A stretch of 64,000 nt of DNA, from NCBI RefSeq assembly GCF_964204645.1, contig NC_134026.1, forward strand, positions 30,987,432-31,051,431, read 5' to 3'. This document shows, piece after piece, positions 19,367 to 56,759 of this stretch. Position 1 is the stretch's first letter, and each line of letters opens with the position of its first letter. The DNA comes from Tubulanus polymorphus. Taxonomy: Eukaryota; Animalia; Nemertea. A program made the position numbers and the translations under genes. The notes under the pieces are model-generated. The model saw nothing but the letters and a program-made list of their open reading frames with translations. It did no database searches and was not told the origin of the DNA.

Positions 19367-19684
19367 GTTTTATTTGATATATTCAATTCACTGAATTCTG
19401 GGTGGTCACTGACCTGACAAAACTTGAGGAATCAGAAAAAAACGGGGACAATTTGGGGAATTCAAATAATGTTATTGTTCTTGATCAATACTTGATTCAA
19501 TGAAAAATATATGAATTGTAAGATTTTGAATCTTGAAATTTCTCTGATTCACTCCTGGAATTGTGTTATAACGTGGACAAATCAGCGAAAACTCAGGGGA
19601 TTTAGGTAACTGGGTGGAAAGTGGCCTCACAGGAATGTAATGAACGTTTTAAGATAGTTTCAATTGTTAATTGTATTTTTGTAG

Positions 19685-20244
19685 GATGTGTTGATGTTTG
19701 GGAGCCGAAAGTATTACGTTCTGCAGCCGGTGCTCATTTCAAAATTCCTCTAATCGATAATCTCGAATGGTCGACGATATCCGCTTATATCCGACAAAAT
19801 TCGGCGGTGTTCCTCGCGGATATCACTAAAAACAACGACGGAGACGAAATCAATCGCGATCAATTACTAGCGGAACTCGAGAATGAGGAAAACACGTACG
19901 AGATTCCGGATTCGGGAATTGATAATGATAACGAAATTCGGTCGGAAAACAACGAGGACGATTCATCGTCCGAAACTGAATTTCATAAACACCTCGCTAT
20001 TTCAAATAAACCGTATTACGCTATAAACTACGCTAGGAACGATAGCGTAACGTTAGTGATCGGTGGTGAAACTGAAGGCATCAGTAGCGCCGCCTATAAA
20101 CTCGTATTTGATAGATTCGGCGAGAAAGTCTTTATTCCGATGATTAAAGGAATCGATAGTTTGAATTCAGCGATCGCCTGCAGCGTCATCGCCTTCGAGA
20201 TTAAGAGACAATTTCAACAATTGAAAGATAATGAAAACGATTAG
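19685..20244 (+). CDS. MRM3: MRM3-like exon 4/4 (SpoU motifs 2 and 3: LVIGGETEGIS, IPMIKGIDSLNSAIACSVIAFE) with acidic insertion
   Basis: Acceptor tttttgtag. ORF to TAG at 20244. SpoU C-terminal knot motifs present. Confidence 0.8.
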
Positions 20245-42867: not shown

Positions 42868-43245
42868 CACAAGCAGTATTGGACCTGGTGGCATGCTCCT
42901 TGCTGCACCAGCAGTATCGCACCAGGTGGGGTGCTCCATGCTGCACCATCAGTATCGCGCCAAGTGGCGTGCTCCATGCTGCACCAGCAGTATCGCACCA
43001 GGTGGGGTGCTCCATGCTGCACCAGCAGTATCGCGCCAAGTGGCGTGCTCCATGCTGCACCAGCAGTATCGCACCAGATAGCGTGCTCCTTGCTGCACCA
43101 GCAGTATCACACCAGATAGTGTGCTCCATGTTGCACCAGCAGTATCGCACCAGGTGGGGTGCTCCATGCTGCACCAGCAGTATCGCACCAGGTGGGTAGC
43201 TCCATGCTGCACCAGCAGTATCGCACCAGGTAGCTATCGTCCCAC
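42868..43245. repeat. ~39-41-bp tandem repeat x ~9 (cagcagtatcgcaccaggtggggtgctccatgctgcac) in TLCD1 intron 4
   Basis: Direct copies. Overlapping ORFs on both strands (42826-43255) are artefacts. Confidence 0.9.
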
Positions 43246-44630: not shown

Positions 44631-45207
44631 GCATACTCAGGTGTGTACATTCTGTTGTTGGTATATCGATAATATGTGTTCCGTCCGATAGGTGGCGGCC
44701 ATGAAGCTTCTGGCTTGTACATGTAGTGTCCACGATAATAAATAAACATCTCTGTGATTGTTATTACTAGTAAACATGCCATTTTTTCGTCGATTTTATT
44801 TTTCATGGATCTGAGGAAATCAACAGTCGCCAGCCAGTTTATCATCGAGAATTATTTCCCCTGACAAGAGACATTATGATTTTTAATTGAAAATGCAATA
44901 CAAACACTACAGACATAGACATTCATCGGTACACTTTCAAAAACTGATCGTCCACACTTCACTTGGGTTCAGAACATTCGATCAGGATGAGGACTTGCTG
45001 TGGCTGATTGCACAGGGAACGGTTGGCCCGGGTCTGAAAACTACACTGAAGTCCTCGCGACATTGTAACACGTTTAGTCAAATGAACGACCTCATTATTA
45101 TTGCAAATGCAACTATCGTCATTATTGTAATTGTAAATAACTAATAGATACAGAATTCAGCGCTGCCTGTATTATATATACTGCATTGAGTGGGATAGAT
45201 CAGCAAA

Positions 45208-45777
45208 ATGTCTACGATTTGGATTTTGATGTTTATGGCGCTTCATTTTAATGTCAACGATAGTGCCTACATCAAAAGAACTGACACCTGTCAGGATATA
45301 ACGATTCCGATGTGTAAAATAGGATTGTCATACAATCAAACAAAAATGCTGAATGTCTTCAATCGGAACCAAGAAGAAGCTCTTTGGGACTTGTTTTTTT
45401 GGCCGCGGATAAATTGCAGCGATTCCCTGAATGAATTTCTATGTGCACTATACGCACCGCCGTGTTCCTCGGAACCGCCGTGTAAATCGCTATGCGAAGA
45501 AGTTACAAAAGCGTGTGAAGCTGCGATGAATAGCCTGGGATTTCTTTGGCCACACAAACTGAGGTGCGAAAATTTCAAACGGGAAACATCTTGTATCGGA
45601 GCCCGAGGTATTGAAAAATCTCAAAATCACGGACAGCTGAGTGTGATGACATTGATGGATCTGGAAAATCGTGTTGATTTCCTCGAATCACGAATAGAAA
45701 ACAGTGAAACATTTCGCGATAAAGTAAAAAATTTAGAGCAGCGAATTGAAGCTCTTGAACGCATTTTATTGAAGTAA
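45208..45777 (+). CDS. Secreted Frizzled-type cysteine-rich-domain protein with C-terminal coiled coil, paralog A (189 aa, intronless)
   Basis: Signal peptide MSTIWILMFMALHF. Ten Cys in FZ-CRD spacing (C..IPMC...GLSYN.T.M.N...Q.EA...CS..L..FLC..YAPPC...PC.SLCE..C....WP..L.C..F). Heptad-rich C-terminus [41 protein letters not shown]. Confidence 0.8.
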   Translation: MSTIWILMFMALHFNVNDSAYIKRTDTCQDITIPMCKIGLSYNQTKMLNVFNRNQEEALWDLFFWPRINCSDSLNEFLCALYAPPCSSEPPCKSLCEEVTKACEAAMNSLGFLWPHKLRCENFKRETSCIGARGIEKSQNHGQLSVMTLMDLENRVDFLESRIENSETFRDKVKNLEQRIEALERILLK

Positions 45778-46230
45778 CTATTTTAAATAATTCTGTAAAG
45801 AAACGATCAAATTTCAACAACAACAAAGATATAATCTCTGCGGTTAAATGATCGTTCAACTCATAAATCTTTAATTTCTCTTTTTTGAGTCATTGAATAA
45901 AAGATCTTTCTTCAAGAACTTCCACAAAAATCTGGTGATCTAGTTTTTTTTCGATTTTTCCTTTCCAACAACTTACACGAACCGGAGTTCGGAGTGAATC
46001 TGCTGTAATTTGTGCGGATAGGGGTGAATTCTGTTCCCACAGTGTCAACAACAGTTTCGTCATTAATGTTGTCATATTTCCAGGGTAGCGGGTGATCTAA
46101 TTGCAGAATTTACTAATATTGCCTCCTCTAATGACGTATCAAATTGTATGGGTGACCTAAACCTTTATTGGCATTTGGTTAGACTGGTTGCTGGTAGTTG
46201 AAGCTGCGCTAAACCGAATAGATCCACAAA

Positions 46231-46893
46231 ATGTCTCCAATTTGGATTTTCACGTTTTTTATGTTTTATTTTGGCGTCGGTGAAAGTTTTTTCAGGACAA
46301 GTGAAAACTGTGAGAATATACAGATGCCACTGTGTAAAGTAGGATTGTCGTACAATCAAACAAGAATGCCGAATATGTTTCATCATCAAAACCAAGAAGA
46401 AGCAGGTCTGGAGTTACATCAGTTTTTTCCGTTGGTTAAGGTGAGATGCAGTCCGAATTTAAAGGAGTTTCTATGCGCTATGTACGCACCACCTTGTTCT
46501 TCTGAACCACCGTGTAAATCACTCTGTGAACTTGCAAGAAATGGTTGTGAAACCCTCATGAACAGATTCGGATTTCAATGGCCAGAAAAAATGAACTGTA
46601 ACCATTTTCGAGATAATGAACCTTGTATCAGTGGAACTGCGACTCCAGCACCGCCAACAACACAGGAGCCGTCGACTCCACCACCAACCGAGGAGCCCTC
46701 TACTCCAGCACCAACCGAGGAGCCTTTGACTCCTGTGACGTCGAATAAACCGTTGAGCGTGAAATTAATGGATTTAGAAAATCGCGTTGAATTCCTCGAA
46801 TCGCTGATAGAAAACAGTGAAACATTTCGCGATAAAGTGAAAAATTTAGAACAGCGAATTGAAGCTCTTGAACGTATTTTATTGAAGAATTGA
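46231..46893 (+). CDS. Secreted Frizzled-CRD plus Pro/Thr linker plus coiled-coil protein, paralog B (220 aa, intronless)
   Basis: Signal peptide [17 protein letters not shown]. Same 10-Cys [27 protein letters not shown] mucin-like linker. C-terminal 40 aa nearly identical to paralog A. Confidence 0.8.
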
Positions 46894-47384
46894 TTTATAA
46901 AATTTGAATGAACAATATGTTTATACATAATTATATATATATATACATACACCTAGTGAAAAATACACGTTTGATCCTTACTGATGTACATCATCGAGTT
47001 GGAAATTTCGGATATTCTATAATATTCTATAATATTTCATATCCATTAATTCTTTCTTAATTATTTTACTGTTTATCCATTCAGTTTTACCGAGGAGGTT
47101 TTTCCCATCTTCCTGGTTTTACCGTGGACAGTAAGAATCCAAACGAAAGATAAGAAAGAATGTACAGCCTAACGGCCAGTATGACTCATAACGGATTTGT
47201 GTTTAATCCCTGGAGAAGCCACGTTCATTCAAACTCTTGCCCTATAGTATATATTCCTTTTTTGTGACAGAAAAATAGCCACGGACTTGAAATTCAGAAT
47301 TGCTTAAAACAATTCCTGTCAATGGGCCTTATTAAGAGACTGTGCAATCAGAATGATAGCGGGGATTGTTAGTGAATAGTCACC

Positions 47385-47470
47385 ACACCCGACTGGTCAC
47401 CAGTCACCACACCTGACTGGTCACCAGTCACCACACCCGACTGGTCACCAGTCACCACACCTGACTGATC
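47385..47470. repeat. 26-bp tandem repeat x ~4 (gactggtcaccagtcaccacacc(c/t))
   Basis: Direct tandem copies. Confidence 0.8.
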
Positions 47471-47527
47471 ACCAGTCACAGCTACACATAACTGGAAACC
47501 ACACGCAGGCCAATAAACAACAACTCA

Positions 47528-47934: not shown

Positions 47935-48140
47935 TTGGGGCCAGTTCCACAGTCATGTTTTGGCTACAAGACTAACTTCTATAACCGATCTAGCAACTTA
48001 AGACCAGTCTAAGCTCATTTTAGTTCAATCACCAATATAACAACTTAAGACCAGTCTAAGCTCATTTTGGTTATATATCCAACCTAACAACTTAAGATGA
48101 TAAGTCTTAAGATTTAAGACCACTTTTTGGACTTTTGGTC
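47935..48140. mobile_element. MITE family A copy
   Basis: ggggccagttccacagtcatgtttt... aacttaagaccagtctaagctcatttt x2 ... cttaagatttaagaccact. Confidence 0.7.
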
Positions 48141-48667
48141 AAGCTTTACTTTTGGTAACAGCTTTACTTCATCACTCGCATTGTACCAATGACAAAGAGA
48201 TTGTACCTTTCCAGGATTCCAATTTCTAGCTGGTTAATAAAACAAATCTATTGTAGACCTACAGTACATAGACATAATCATTATACACAATATAAAATAA
48301 TACTTCATACATTAGCTGTAAACACGAATATCGCACAAATAATATAGTACAGTATAACATAAAGGCAATATAGAAATCCCAAACTAAGAATGAAAAGAGT
48401 CTAAAATGTCTCCATGAGTTTATTATTTAGTTCAGCACATCAACTTTATCTAAATCGCCATCTTCAAGAATAAGTGTTTTCACAACTAGCCGAATAGTCA
48501 TCTGCTGGAATACCAGAGTAATACAAGGAATTCAGCACTATCTCATGAAGAGTGCTAGTAGGATCTATCTCCAGGAAACATTGTGGACTTTTTAAATTCT
48601 TAGTATCGGATTATCATTTTTAACAACATGAACTCAGAGTGTTTTAAACAATATTACTCCGATAAAT

Positions 48668-48788
<121 letters not shown>

Positions 48789-50134: not shown

Positions 50135-50298
50135 CTACAAAAAATAACAATCAAATTCAGTTAAAATCATTGTCAACTGGATTCAGTTCTCAGTTTTAAC
50201 AGTTTAAAAACATTGAAAATGAACTGATTCTGACTCAGACTGCGGAACTGGAAAAAGATTTTGAAAGAACTCTTGATTCGAAATAATTGTAAATTCAC

Positions 50299-50629
50299 CT
50301 GGTCCAAAACTAAATGCATATCCAGCAACGAAAACTAACAAAGCTATAAATGAAATCCATTTGGAAATAACAGACTGCATCTGATCCTGGTGCGGTTCAA
50401 GAACAGGTGCCGATTCCTCGAGACTGATGTTTGAACCGATAGTTCTATTGACTGGTATCATAGTAACTCCATCGTGACAAATGACCGACACATCCTCGAC
50501 TTGTTGTAAAGTAAATGTAACGATCCCGAGAATGAAAATACTTAAAGCCATTAACGTTGATCCGGACAGTAAGAATTTACGTCTTCCAGCCTTGTCAAAC
50601 AACGACAGAGACACTACAGTAGCTATAAA
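50299..50629 (-). CDS. SLC2A13: SLC2A13-like exon 10/13 (TM9, DKAGRRK motif, long extracellular loop, TM10)
   Basis: Motif D.AGRR..LL.GS of the GLUT family. ~45-aa loop between TMs as in HMIT. Acceptor tatttcag, donor G|gtgaat. Confidence 0.8.
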
Positions 50630-50808
50630 CTGAAATATCAATGAAAATCATGCGTTAGATTTTTGATCCTTTACAGGGAACAGTTTCACAAAAAAATCTC
50701 CTTGTTAAACTCTTATTTCATTTCATTTCCTCATTAATCTAGTTCTAATCGATTTAAGAGTTAATCATTTTTGTGATGAGACTGGATCTATAGGAAATAC
50801 GGTACATT

Positions 50809-55802: not shown

Positions 55803-56252
55803 TCAATTTTGATCGTCGTAAAGAACTCGAACGCTTAATGAACACGAACAACAGCAGACGATATCAACAGAAAACTGTTTATCACAATCGTTTAATGTAT
55901 AAAACCCTCCGCATCTACACGGATAAACTAAAACATCGTCGTCATCGGCAACGACGTCAAATTCTGACAATGAAATTGTATCCTGAATCGGGAATTTCTG
56001 CGCGAGGCATCTTTGACTCCAAGCGGCGTCGTATTTATTCCTCATCTCCTCGTCTCGTAATATTTTCCAAGCTTTGTCGATGGCGACGAATTCATCGCGG
56101 AGTTCACTCAGTTGTCGTTCGGTCAAATCGCGATCGTCTTTTCTATCGCGTTTATCCGGATGAAATTCAAGCACTAGTTTCTGATACGATTGTTTTAACG
56201 TTTCTTTACTCGCGCCGGAATCACATTTCAATATCGCGTACAAATCTTCCAT
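55803..56252 (-). CDS. DNAJC24: DPH4/DNAJC24 (J-domain plus CSL zinc finger), intronless, 149 aa
   Basis: J-domain DLYAILKC...LVLEFHPDK. CSL-type zinc finger YPCRCGGFYTLND...VCCCSCSL. ATG at 56252. The ORF-track start at 56300 is an upstream TTG. Confidence 0.85.
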   Translation of the reverse strand: MEDLYAILKCDSGASKETLKQSYQKLVLEFHPDKRDRKDDRDLTERQLSELRDEFVAIDKAWKILRDEEMRNKYDAAWSQRCLAQKFPIQDTISLSEFDVVADDDDVLVYPCRCGGFYTLNDCDKQFSVDIVCCCSCSLSVRVLYDDQN

Positions 56253-56759
56253 TTCGCTCTTAATTCGCGTGAAATGAAAATCTTCCGATTTATGTTTCAA
56301 ATCCCCTCAAAAATTCCCTGAAAAGACACGAAATAAAAACCAAAACGTATTTTAAGATTTTGTTTGTTACGCATTTTGAAATGTGAGCCCCATTCACGCG
56401 AGTCTACTGCGGCAGTTGTGTATCCCTACCTTTCTCCTTCGTCGATGTCATTTTATGATAATCCTTTACAGGTTTATTCTCTCTTATTCACTTTGTAAAA
56501 TTCATACTTTATAAGACTAGACGACTAACATAAAGATAGTCTCAAAAAATAATCCGTAATGTGTGCAGTCAGTACGTGTTTTGTATGTGACACTGACACA
56601 ATATTAATCAGTTGGTAACATATGTAACCCACCGGTACGCAGCACGCTTATTCAATATTACATCTATCACTCTGTATAAAAATCCCACAATAATTTGATT
56701 AAAAGAAGTCCGAAATGTTAATGATTTATTCAAAGTTTCAACTAAATCCTAATAGTCTG

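What the first reader, a model, noticed from the sequence alone, without database searches (positions are those of the whole stretch)
45208..46893. Tandem pair of intronless genes encoding a secreted Frizzled-CRD fused to a C-terminal coiled coil. Architecture unlike sFRP, Frizzled, CPZ or collagen XVIII.
Both ORFs have a signal peptide and a 10-cysteine FZ-type CRD with conserved spacing (C..IPMC, GLSYNQT.MPN, FLCA.YAPPC...PPCKSLCE..C....WP..L.C). Both then have a heptad-rich ~40-aa C-terminus ([39 protein letters not shown]) that predicts an oligomerising coiled coil. There is no netrin (NTR) domain as in sFRPs and no 7TM. Paralog B additionally carries a mucin-like PT-rich linker ([24 protein letters not shown]). 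A small secreted, probably multimeric Wnt-binding module of this form is not a described family as far as I know. It may be a lineage-specific Wnt modulator.
Basis: partly seen in the sequence, partly recalled or inferred. Interest (0 to 1): 0.75.

Follow-up and report, generated by a model that had tools for sequence, protein, structure and literature searches.

The report
Secreted Frizzled CRD with coiled-coil tail
Two neighbouring genes of the ribbon worm Tubulanus polymorphus encode small, probably secreted copies of the Wnt-binding head of a Frizzled receptor joined to a short self-pairing helix: a lineage-specific and apparently undescribed twist on the known soluble Frizzled decoys, but untested for expression or function.

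Summary
ORF A (45208-45777, 189 aa) and ORF B (46231-46893, 220 aa) lie in tandem on the + strand. Each has a hydrophobic N-terminus, a Pfam Fz domain (E 4e-21 and 6e-30) with all 10 Cys, a linker and a 40-aa heptad helix. Neither has a 7TM or NTR domain.

- **CRD type:** B's CRD is of Fz1/2/7 type. It is about 56% identical to human FZD7/2, its AF2 model superposes at 1.1-1.4 A, and it keeps 10/10 lipid-groove residues. A keeps 6/10.
- **Selection:** both genes are under purifying selection. The tail is far more constrained (omega 0.04) than the CRD (0.31).
- **Tail:** all 11 a/d core positions are hydrophobic and all four g-e' pairs are K/R-E, which fits a parallel homo- or A/B hetero-oligomer. 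The tail has no detectable homologue elsewhere.
- **Identity:** the organism is the nemertean Tubulanus polymorphus. B is RefSeq XP_074642963.1 ("frizzled-1-like"). A is not in the protein collection.

Secreted CRD-only Frizzled relatives are already known (Platynereis fzCRD-1 to -3), as are multimeric CRD decoys (collagen XVIII, engineered Fzd8-CRD-Fc). This is therefore a new variant of a known kind. An unidentified organism has a similar CRD-linker-coil gene, possibly by convergence. Expression, oligomerisation and Wnt binding are untested. Interest is moderate.

The parts
45208..45777 (+). ORF A, 189 aa plus stop: signal-like N-terminus, divergent Fz CRD, 16-aa linker, coiled-coil tail
   Evidence: ORF. 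Pfam Fz E 3.7e-21. AF2 mean pLDDT 83.3, CRD 91-95. The exact sequence is not in the protein collection.
45289..45597 (+). CRD of A (Cys28 to Cys130, 10 Cys)
   Evidence: All Cys columns align with B. 6 of 10 FZD2 lipid-groove positions are retained: Q75 and L79 equivalents deleted, L124 to A, F128 to L. The groove helix is shortened to residues 55-62.
45649..45774 (+). Coiled-coil tail of A (residues 148-189, [41 protein letters not shown])
   Evidence: AF2 helices 149-165 and 167-188, with the break at the heptad register shift. Heptad z = 2.85. 87.7% nucleotide identity to B's tail.
45896..45901 (+). AATAAA polyadenylation-like signal, 119 nt after A's stop codon
   Evidence: Pattern scan. 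Consensus match only.
46231..46893 (+). ORF B, 220 aa plus stop = RefSeq XP_074642963.1 'frizzled-1-like' of Tubulanus polymorphus
   Evidence: ORF. 100% match to P0001. Accession. Pfam Fz E 5.5e-30.
46231..46281 (+). Predicted signal peptide of B (residues 1-17, [17 protein letters not shown] | ES)
   Evidence: Hydrophobic stretch modelled as helix 4-14. G-V-G fits the -3/-1 rule (inference; SignalP not available).
46309..46629 (+). CRD of B (Cys27 to Cys133, 10 Cys; N-glycosylation sequon N42-Q-T)
   Evidence: PDB phmmer hit to FZD2/7/1 CRDs, E about 1e-42. AF2 pLDDT 94-98. Foldseek to FZD7/FZD2 CRD, rmsd 1.1-1.4 A, 56% identity. 10 of 10 lipid-groove residues conserved.
46630..46764 (+). 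PT-rich, mucin-like disordered linker of B (residues 134-178)
   Evidence: AF2 pLDDT about 50 with no secondary structure. Contains a 27-nt tandem repeat, 2.6 copies, at 46664-46733.
46765..46890 (+). Coiled-coil tail of B (residues 179-220, [42 protein letters not shown])
   Evidence: AF2 helix 182-219, pLDDT 79-96. a/d positions L L V L I | F V L I L L. g-e' pairs K-E, R-E, K-E, R-E. 3-residue register shift at ENSET. omega = 0.04 against A.

Best explanation
A and B are old tandem duplicates of a Tubulanus-specific gene family. There are at least three members; the third is XP_074641452.1, elsewhere on the same chromosome. [quoted passage not shown]

Each gene encodes a small protein that enters the secretory pathway and folds into a disulphide-bonded CRD. 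A flexible linker (16 aa in A; about 46 aa, probably O-glycosylated, in B) ties the CRD to a 40-residue amphipathic helix. The helix most likely zips into a parallel, in-register coiled coil. A dimer is the best guess from beta-branched 'a' and Leu 'd' core positions; a trimer is not excluded. Because the tails are nearly identical, A/A, B/B and A/B assemblies should all be possible.

The result would be a soluble, bivalent or multivalent CRD. B retains the complete palmitoleate-binding groove, so it most likely captures lipidated Wnt outside the cell with avidity. The two tethered CRDs may close around one Wnt lipid, as in FZD5/7/8 CRD dimers. B would then act as a decoy that competes with membrane Frizzleds: a natural counterpart of the engineered Fzd8-CRD-Fc. 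At low dose it could instead solubilise and spread Wnt. A, with a remodelled groove, is a diverged partner or a specificity variant.

Shown: ORFs, Fz domain, fold, groove conservation, helix, heptad pattern, purifying selection.
Inferred: secretion, oligomerisation and its stoichiometry, Wnt binding, and the direction of the effect on signalling.
For: - **Domain and fold:** Fz domain well above threshold in both. B's CRD is closest to FZD2/7/1 (E about 1e-42), ahead of FZD5/8 (1e-36), sFRP3 (6e-26) and Sizzled (1e-15). The AF2 model superposes on FZD7/FZD2 CRD crystal structures at 1.1-1.4 A.
- **Lipid groove:** all ten groove positions taken from PMC6333880 are identical in B.
- **No other domains:** no TM segment in B after the signal region, and no NTR or 7TM anywhere in the window.
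- **Tail:** one long confident helix. All 11 core positions are hydrophobic, all four g-e' pairs are basic-acidic, and the periodicity is z = 2.9.
- **Selection:** CRD omega 0.31 (p = 1e-5 against neutrality). Tail omega 0.04 with dS 0.49 (p = 7e-6). The tail is significantly more constrained than the CRD (p = 1e-8). This fits a tail that must keep pairing.
- **Gene model:** RefSeq's model for B is exactly this ORF.
- **Precedents:** soluble CRDs bind Wnt and inhibit or biphasically modulate signalling. Examples are Fzd8-CRD-Fc (PMC3248130), soluble Fz8-CRD with a biphasic effect (PMC4068752) and the collagen XVIII FZ module (PMC3267734, PMC2270346; titles and abstracts). FZD5/7/8 CRDs dimerise around one fatty acyl chain (PMC6333880).
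Against: - **No transcript evidence:** B's 90% cluster has a single member from NCBI/UniRef and no Logan (SRA-assembly) member. ORF A is absent from the protein collection altogether.
- **No oligomerisation test:** only monomer predictions were possible.
- **Signal peptide:** no signal-peptide predictor was available, and A's cleavage site is not canonical.
- **A and P0002 grooves:** A has lost 4 of 10 groove residues. P0002 has a 4-residue deletion in the FGF-motif region, and its model ends inside the linker. Wnt binding may therefore not be the selected function across the family.
- **Tail register:** the tail has a 3-residue register shift, modelled as a helix break in A.
- **Other ligands:** CRDs also bind free fatty acids, Norrin and bacterial toxin TcdB, so the ligand need not be Wnt.
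Confidence: 0.5

Rival explanations
1. The protein is a secreted CRD whose ligand is not Wnt. It could be a fatty-acid or lipid carrier, a mucus or venom component, or a decoy for toxins that target Frizzled CRDs. Under this reading the tail and mucin-like linker serve multimerisation or anchoring in the mucus or matrix.
For: FZD CRDs bind free fatty acids, and C. difficile TcdB uses FZD1/2/7 CRDs (PMC6333880). A spider venom-gland transcript encodes a CRD-only protein, U68-Liphistoxin (P0048). B has a mucin-like PT repeat. The family evolves fast: A and P0002 have altered grooves. Nemerteans secrete abundant mucus and toxins (titles and abstracts of nemertean toxin papers).
Against: B is 56-60% identical to bona fide Wnt-binding FZD2/7 CRDs, with every lipid-groove residue conserved. 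That is what Wnt binding needs. No tissue or proteome data link these proteins to mucus or venom.
Confidence: 0.15
2. The tail is not a self-association module. It is a docking helix for a different partner, such as an extracellular matrix or cell-surface protein, and localises a monomeric CRD.
For: The tail is the most conserved part of the protein (omega 0.04), which would also fit a conserved heterologous interface. There is a register discontinuity in mid-tail. Oligomerisation was not tested.
Against: All 11 a/d positions are hydrophobic and all four g-e' pairs are complementary K/R-E. That is the signature of parallel homomeric coiled coils. The closest PDB sequences are designed helical oligomers and GCN4 variants.
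Confidence: 0.15
3. One or both ORFs are non-functional relics (decaying duplicates), or are exons of a larger Frizzled or sFRP gene. The architecture would then be an artefact.
For: ORF A is not present as an annotated protein and has a degraded lipid groove. No transcript evidence was found for either gene. The related P0002 model is truncated.
Against: Both ORFs are intact despite dS of about 0.8-1.0. All 10 Cys and the N-glycosylation sequon are conserved, and omega is significantly below 1 in both CRD and tail. Both ORFs end with a stop 0-1 codon after the same conserved tail. There is no 7TM or NTR coding potential in the 64-kb window. RefSeq models B as exactly this ORF. A is confidently predicted to fold.
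Confidence: 0.1

Closest known systems
fzCRD genes of Platynereis dumerilii (fzCRD-1, -2, -3; Bastin et al. 2015, PMC4669655)
   Same: Small lineage-specific proteins (fzCRD-1 is 208 aa) with a signal peptide and a single Fz CRD carrying all 10 Cys and the NxT/S sequon. They have no 7TM and no complete NTR, and are proposed to sequester or modify Wnt.
   Different: fzCRD-1 derives from sFRP3/4 and keeps a possible NTR remnant (CXC). The Tubulanus CRD is of Fz1/2/7 type. It has a Cys-free tail forming a heptad helix, which has not been reported for fzCRDs. The two are not orthologous.
Secreted Frizzled-related proteins (sFRP1/2/5, sFRP3/4, Sizzled)
   Same: Secreted CRD-bearing Wnt binders that act as antagonists or range-extenders.
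   Different: sFRPs carry a C-terminal NTR domain, which is absent here. B's CRD is much closer to the FZD2/7 receptor CRD (E 1e-42) than to sFRP3 (6e-26) or Sizzled (1e-15).
Engineered soluble decoy Fzd8-CRD-Fc (and soluble Fzd7 ectodomain decoys)
   Same: A soluble Frizzled CRD made bivalent by a C-terminal dimerising module through a flexible hinge. It inhibits Wnt signalling (PMC3248130; PMC9124529 abstract).
   Different: It is artificial and dimerised by an IgG Fc rather than a coiled coil. The function of the Tubulanus proteins is untested.
Collagen XVIII long variant (V3C18) with its FZ module
   Same: An extracellular protein that carries an Fz CRD. The released FZC18 module binds Wnt3a and inhibits Wnt/beta-catenin signalling (PMC2270346 and PMC3267734, abstracts). 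That collagens are trimeric, which would make it a natural multimeric CRD, rests on established knowledge and was not tested here.
   Different: It is a very large multidomain collagen, multimerised by a collagen triple helix, and its CRD is of a different subfamily. Nothing here is collagenous.
Unnamed CRD-PT linker-coiled coil proteins P0005/P0128 and P0023 (ENA assemblies, organism unknown)
   Same: Same layout: signal-like N-terminus, Fz1/2/7-type CRD with 10/10 groove residues, PT-rich linker, C-terminal heptad-rich helix ending in ...LERQLRRN, and a single-exon ORF.
   Different: The tail is longer and not significantly similar to the Tubulanus tail (phmmer E about 5; Smith-Waterman shuffle p about 0.05). 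There is an extra CxC in the linker. The CRDs never group with the Tubulanus clade (0/100 bootstraps), and shared rare characters are at control level. Homology of the whole architecture is unresolved, and convergence is possible.

Membership tests
Frizzled-type cysteine-rich domain (Pfam Fz, PF01392) | Profile match above the curated gathering score | tested here: met
   A scores 76.2 bits and B 104.6 bits against a cut-off of 32.1.
Frizzled-type cysteine-rich domain (Pfam Fz, PF01392) | Ten conserved cysteines in canonical spacing, and a mainly alpha-helical CRD fold | tested here: met
   10 Cys align in A and B and with FZD2. The AF2 model of B matches FZD7/2 CRD structures at rmsd 1.1-1.4 A, TM(target) 0.8-0.88. 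A folds with pLDDT 91-95.
Frizzled-type cysteine-rich domain (Pfam Fz, PF01392) | Hydrophobic lipid-binding groove residues (FZD2 Q75, F76, P78, L79, V82, L124, M125, F128-G-F130) | tested here: met
   B has 10/10 identical. A has only 6/10, so the feature is met for B and only partly for A (residue list from PMC6333880).
Frizzled receptors (class F GPCR) | Seven-transmembrane Frizzled domain (PF01534) after the CRD | tested here: not met
   Pfam gives Fz only. No hydrophobic segment follows the signal region in B. tblastn with 11 Frizzled post-CRD/7TM sequences finds nothing in the window (best E 0.4). An in-frame stop follows the tail.
Secreted Frizzled-related proteins (sFRP) | C-terminal netrin-like (NTR) domain with its conserved cysteines | tested here: not met
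   No NTR hit in Pfam. There are no Cys after the CRD in A or B. tblastn with an SFRP1 NTR (sequence recalled from memory) was negative.
CRD-only secreted Frizzled relatives ('fzCRD' kind, Bastin et al. 2015) | N-terminal signal peptide, a single Fz CRD and no other known domain | tested here: met
   Pfam finds Fz only, and there is a hydrophobic N-terminus. The signal peptide itself rests on heuristics only.
CRD-only secreted Frizzled relatives ('fzCRD' kind, Bastin et al. 2015) | Orthology with Platynereis fzCRD-1 (CRD of sFRP3/4 descent) | tested here: not met
   B's CRD is nearest to FZD1/2/7 (E 1e-42), not to sFRP3 (6e-26). The Tubulanus genes form their own clade with a unique 5-residue loop between the fifth and sixth cysteines. 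The Platynereis sequences themselves were not available for a direct tree.
Parallel alpha-helical coiled-coil oligomerisation module | Continuous helix with heptad a/d hydrophobic core and complementary e/g charges | tested here: met
   AF2 helix 182-219 in B. 11/11 a/d positions are hydrophobic, 4/4 g-e' pairs are K/R-E, and z = 2.9 against shuffles. There is one 3-residue register shift.
Parallel alpha-helical coiled-coil oligomerisation module | Actual self-association and its stoichiometry | not testable with these tools
   Only monomer structure prediction was available. The preference for a dimer is inferred from beta-branched a / Leu d positions (Harbury rules, established knowledge).
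Matrilin/COMP-type C-terminal coiled coils (e.g. Pfam Matrilin_ccoil) | Profile match to the family | tested here: not met
   No such hit at E <= 1 in Pfam. The tail-only PDB search finds only designed helical proteins and GCN4, at weak scores. The exhaustive search of 1.84 billion representatives gives five generic coiled-coil hits at 35-39 bits.

The most novel reading that the evidence does not exclude
Soluble Frizzled CRDs pre-assembled by a C-terminal coiled coil are a natural, recurrently evolved class of high-avidity Wnt traps. They would have arisen independently in Tubulanus and in the unidentified P0005/P0023 lineage. The tether would hold two CRDs so that they clamp a single Wnt palmitoleate, as in the crystallographic FZD5/7/8 CRD dimers. 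A/B heteromers would diversify specificity.
Probability: 0.3. Interest if true: 0.6.

Novelty: new variant of a known kind. Interest (0 to 1): 0.42.

Why it matters
If these proteins are expressed and oligomeric, they are a natural version of a design that pharmacologists built by hand: a Frizzled CRD dimerised through Fc. They would give an evolutionary test of whether CRD dimerisation around the Wnt lipid matters outside the crystal.

They would add a new extracellular Wnt regulator to a spiralian phylum whose Wnt toolkit is barely studied. They would also illustrate how easily the Fz1/2/7 CRD is copied and joined to new tails. Several other unnamed tails were seen in oysters, a crab, Owenia and hemichordates.

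In practical terms, genes currently labelled 'frizzled-1-like' or 'frizzled-5-like' in RefSeq are not receptors. They would inflate Frizzled counts in comparative surveys.

Tried and rejected
1. **Tail-only indexed search** of 5.8 billion proteins. No candidate was found.
2. **Tail-only exhaustive HMMER search** of 1.84 billion representatives. It gave five weak hits (35-39 bits), all long generic coiled-coil proteins by Pfam. Caveat: the query's own protein was not returned, so the 50% representative library may not contain this tail at all. The negative result has limited power.
3. **Tail patterns against JGI metagenome contigs.** 432 pattern matches, none a relative.
4. **P0005 against metagenome contigs.** Two loci were found, and both are ordinary 7TM Frizzleds once translated.
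5. **Exact-sequence look-up of encoding contigs for B and P0002.** Neither is on record. The third paralogue's locus, and the question of whether it has a tail, could not be examined.
6. **Common origin of the Tubulanus genes and the P0005/P0023 group.** Four tests gave no support: an NJ bootstrap tree (0/100), shared rare residues (1-3, against a control median of 1 and maximum of 4), a tail phmmer search (E about 5) and a Smith-Waterman shuffle (p about 0.05). The question is left unresolved rather than rejected.
7. **Lower dS in the tail as evidence of gene conversion.** The difference (0.49 against 1.03) is not significant (p = 0.15).
8. **Matrilin-like tail,** an idea from memory. No profile support.
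9. **Janda et al. 2012** could not be retrieved, so site-2 (Wnt index-finger) contact residues were not evaluated.
10. **The organism behind P0005** could not be identified from its 14-kb locus. The only other recognisable gene there is a single-exon P450.
Full report
**1. What is there**

The window carries two uninterrupted ORFs on the + strand, 453 bp apart: A (45208-45777, 189 aa) and B (46231-46893, 220 aa). tblastn finds no further copy in the 64 kb.

Pfam calls a single domain in each, Fz (PF01392). A scores 76.2 bits (E 3.7e-21) and B 104.6 bits (E 5.5e-30), against a gathering score of 32.1.

A and B are 50% identical overall, and all ten cysteines align. The last 41 residues are 39/41 identical.

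B has a PT-rich linker of about 46 residues. Its DNA is a 27-nt in-frame tandem repeat, 46664-46733, 2.6 copies. A has only a 16-residue linker.

**2. Source and annotation**

B is 100% identical to XP_074642963.1, 'frizzled-1-like' of the palaeonemertean Tubulanus polymorphus, on a 31.9-Mb scaffold. The RefSeq CDS therefore equals the single-exon ORF.

A third family member, XP_074641452.1 ('frizzled-5-like', 167 aa, 78% identical to B), lies elsewhere on the same scaffold. Its model stops inside the PT linker and lacks four residues of the FGF-motif region.

ORF A's exact sequence is not in the 15-billion-protein collection. No differently spliced Tubulanus version surfaced, even when A was part of the query profile. 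A appears to be unannotated.

**3. The CRD**

Against PDB sequences, B is closest to human FZD2/7/1 CRDs (E about 1e-42). FZD5/8 follow (1e-36), then FZD10 and sFRP3 (1e-26), FZD3/6/4 (1e-22 to 1e-24) and Sizzled (1e-15).

AF2 with a 71-sequence alignment gives pLDDT 94-98 across the CRD. Foldseek superposes it on FZD7 and FZD2 CRD crystal structures at 1.1-1.4 A with 56% identity.

The fatty-acyl groove residues come from the JBC review (PMC6333880): FZD2 Q75, F76, P78, L79, V82, L124, M125 and the F-G-F motif. All are identical in B. A has lost two by deletion and changed two more (L to A, F to L). Its groove helix is modelled shorter, 55-62 against 55-71 in B.

The three Tubulanus genes share a 5-residue loop between the fifth and sixth cysteines, found in no other of about 130 CRDs examined. 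They form a clade with weak support (bootstrap 50).

**4. The tail**

AF2 models residues 182-219 of B as one helix (pLDDT 79-96), after a disordered linker (pLDDT about 50). In A the model gives 149-165 and 167-188.

The sequence forms two heptad blocks. Every a/d position is hydrophobic (L L V L I | F V L I L L). All four g-to-e' pairs are K/R to E.

The blocks are offset by three residues at 'ENSET', which is where A's model kinks. The 3.5-residue hydrophobic moment exceeds shuffles (z = 2.9, p about 0.006).

Beta-branched a and Leu d positions suggest a parallel dimer by the Harbury rules. This rests on established knowledge and was not tested here.

There is no TM-like or GPI-like hydrophobic end in B.

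The tail has no recognisable relative:
- Pfam finds nothing at E <= 1.
- PDB gives only designed helical proteins and GCN4.
- The indexed search finds nothing.
- The exhaustive search gives five generic coiled-coil proteins at 35-39 bits.
- The metagenome pattern scan finds nothing.

Caveat: the exhaustive library did not return the query's own protein, so its power here is limited.

**5. Selection**

Nei-Gojobori estimates between A and B are as follows.

| Region | dN | dS | omega | Test against neutrality |
|---|---|---|---|---|
| CRD | 0.31 | 1.03 | 0.31 | p = 1e-5 |
| Tail | 0.021 | 0.49 | 0.04 | p = 7e-6 |

Non-synonymous change is far rarer in the tail than in the CRD (p = 1e-8). The lower tail dS is not significant (p = 0.15).

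The duplication is therefore old, both genes have been maintained, and the tail is the most constrained element. This argues against pseudogenes. It fits a tail that must keep pairing, including between A and B.

**6. Not part of a larger gene**

Both ORFs stop within one codon of the same conserved tail end.

tblastn with eleven Frizzled post-CRD/7TM sequences and an SFRP1 NTR (recalled from memory) finds nothing in the window (best E 0.4, none downstream on the + strand).

Neighbouring coding pieces are unrelated: a SpoU methylase exon, a sugar-transporter exon and a DnaJ-CSL gene.

An AATAAA lies 119 nt after A's stop. For B the first AATAAA is 619 nt downstream.

**7. Relatives and precedent**

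A profile search returns many short proteins with only an Fz1/2/7-like CRD: Owenia, Ptychodera, Saccoglossus, Glandiceps, oysters and a spider venom-gland transcript. It also returns multi-CRD proteins in shrimp, oysters and fish. Several are truncated receptor fragments.

Only one other group has a heptad tail after a PT linker: P0005/P0128 and P0023, single-exon ORFs in ENA assemblies of unknown origin. Oyster P0068 (basic helical tail) and fish P0090 also passed the heuristic heptad screen but were not examined further.

The P0005/P0023 tails are not significantly similar to the Tubulanus tail, and their CRDs do not group with Tubulanus. Common origin is unproven, and convergence is plausible.

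In the literature, secreted CRD-only Frizzled relatives are described for Platynereis: fzCRD-1, -2 and -3. fzCRD-1 is sFRP3/4-derived and expressed in the embryo. The same paper describes a vertebrate fz4 splice variant (PMC4669655).

The catalogue of Fz-CRD architectures contains no coiled-coil form: Fzd, sFRP, MFRP, CPZ, corin, COL18A1, SMO, MuSK, ROR (PMC6747125). Three full-text searches found no description of one.

**8. Mechanism**

The best-supported reading is a secreted, coiled-coil-assembled, bivalent or multivalent Fz1/2/7-type CRD that binds lipidated Wnt extracellularly.

Supporting analogies:
- Fzd8-CRD-Fc is a potent pan-Wnt inhibitor (PMC3248130).
- Soluble Fz8-CRD modulates Wnt3a biphasically (PMC4068752).
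- The collagen XVIII FZ module inhibits Wnt/beta-catenin signalling.
- FZD5/7/8 CRDs dimerise around a single acyl chain (PMC6333880). A pre-formed dimer could favour that arrangement.

Secretion, oligomerisation, the ligand and the sign of the effect are all inferred. Rivals are a non-Wnt ligand or a mucus/venom role, a heterologous docking helix, and non-functional or mis-modelled ORFs. The last is disfavoured by the selection data.

**9. Verdict**

The architecture is real and apparently undescribed, but it is a lineage-specific variant of a known kind (soluble Frizzled-CRD decoys). One copy is already in RefSeq under a receptor-like name, and there is no expression or functional evidence. 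Interest is moderate (0.42). Novelty: new variant of a known kind.

Noticed in passing
window 42868-43231: A 38-bp minisatellite, 9.6 copies, 89% matches. It creates spurious overlapping ORFs on both strands just upstream of the gene pair.
   Followed up: no
window 48666-48786, 47378-47479 and 47994-48097: A trinucleotide microsatellite (40 copies), a 24-bp repeat (4.2 copies) and a 47-bp repeat (2.2 copies), all downstream of ORF B.
   Followed up: no
window 55803-56300 (-): A single-exon 165-aa ORF with a DnaJ domain and a CSL zinc finger (DPH4/DNAJC24-like).
   Followed up: partly
window 19621-20244 (+) and 50204-50641 (-): Exon-like ORFs matching the SpoU rRNA methylase family and the sugar (and other) transporter family. 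They are parts of multi-exon neighbours unrelated to the finding.
   Followed up: partly
proteins P0113 (crab Petrolisthes manimaculis) and P0007 (Logan contig): Two Fz1/2/7-type CRD proteins share a different conserved C-terminal motif of about 55 aa after a T-rich linker...ELCxEKDE..VFGEYIAA..K.L...A.ATVKH.INNIIY.AELG.FD.PSEN. Pfam names only the Fz domain. This looks like another unnamed CRD-plus-tail family.
   Followed up: partly
proteins P0014-P0022, P0003: Proteins with 2-4 tandem Fz1/2/7-like CRDs and no 7TM domain, in shrimp, oysters and fish (for example Macrobrachium, annotated 'atrial natriuretic peptide-converting enzyme-like').
   Followed up: no
L001 10001-10789 (ENA ERZ25068762, contig of 49,979 bp): A single-exon ORF (P0005, 262 aa) with the same layout: CRD, PT linker and a C-terminal heptad helix. 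It sits in a more GC-rich, unidentified eukaryote, next to a single-exon cytochrome P450 (L001 1012-2568). A near-identical copy (P0128) lies on a second contig.
   Followed up: partly
RefSeq XP_074641452.1 (P0002), not in the window: The third Tubulanus paralogue is annotated 'frizzled-5-like'. Its model ends inside the PT repeat and lacks four residues of the LMNxFGF groove motif. Either the gene is decaying or the model is truncated in the repeat.
   Followed up: partly
window 45195-45207 and 46218-46230: Similarity between the two genes begins only 13 nt upstream of the ATG (GATC[A/C][G/A]CAAAATGTCT) and ends about 11-15 nt after the stop. A TATATAT lies 35 nt upstream of A's ATG. The 5' UTRs are therefore either very short or interrupted by an upstream intron.
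   Followed up: no
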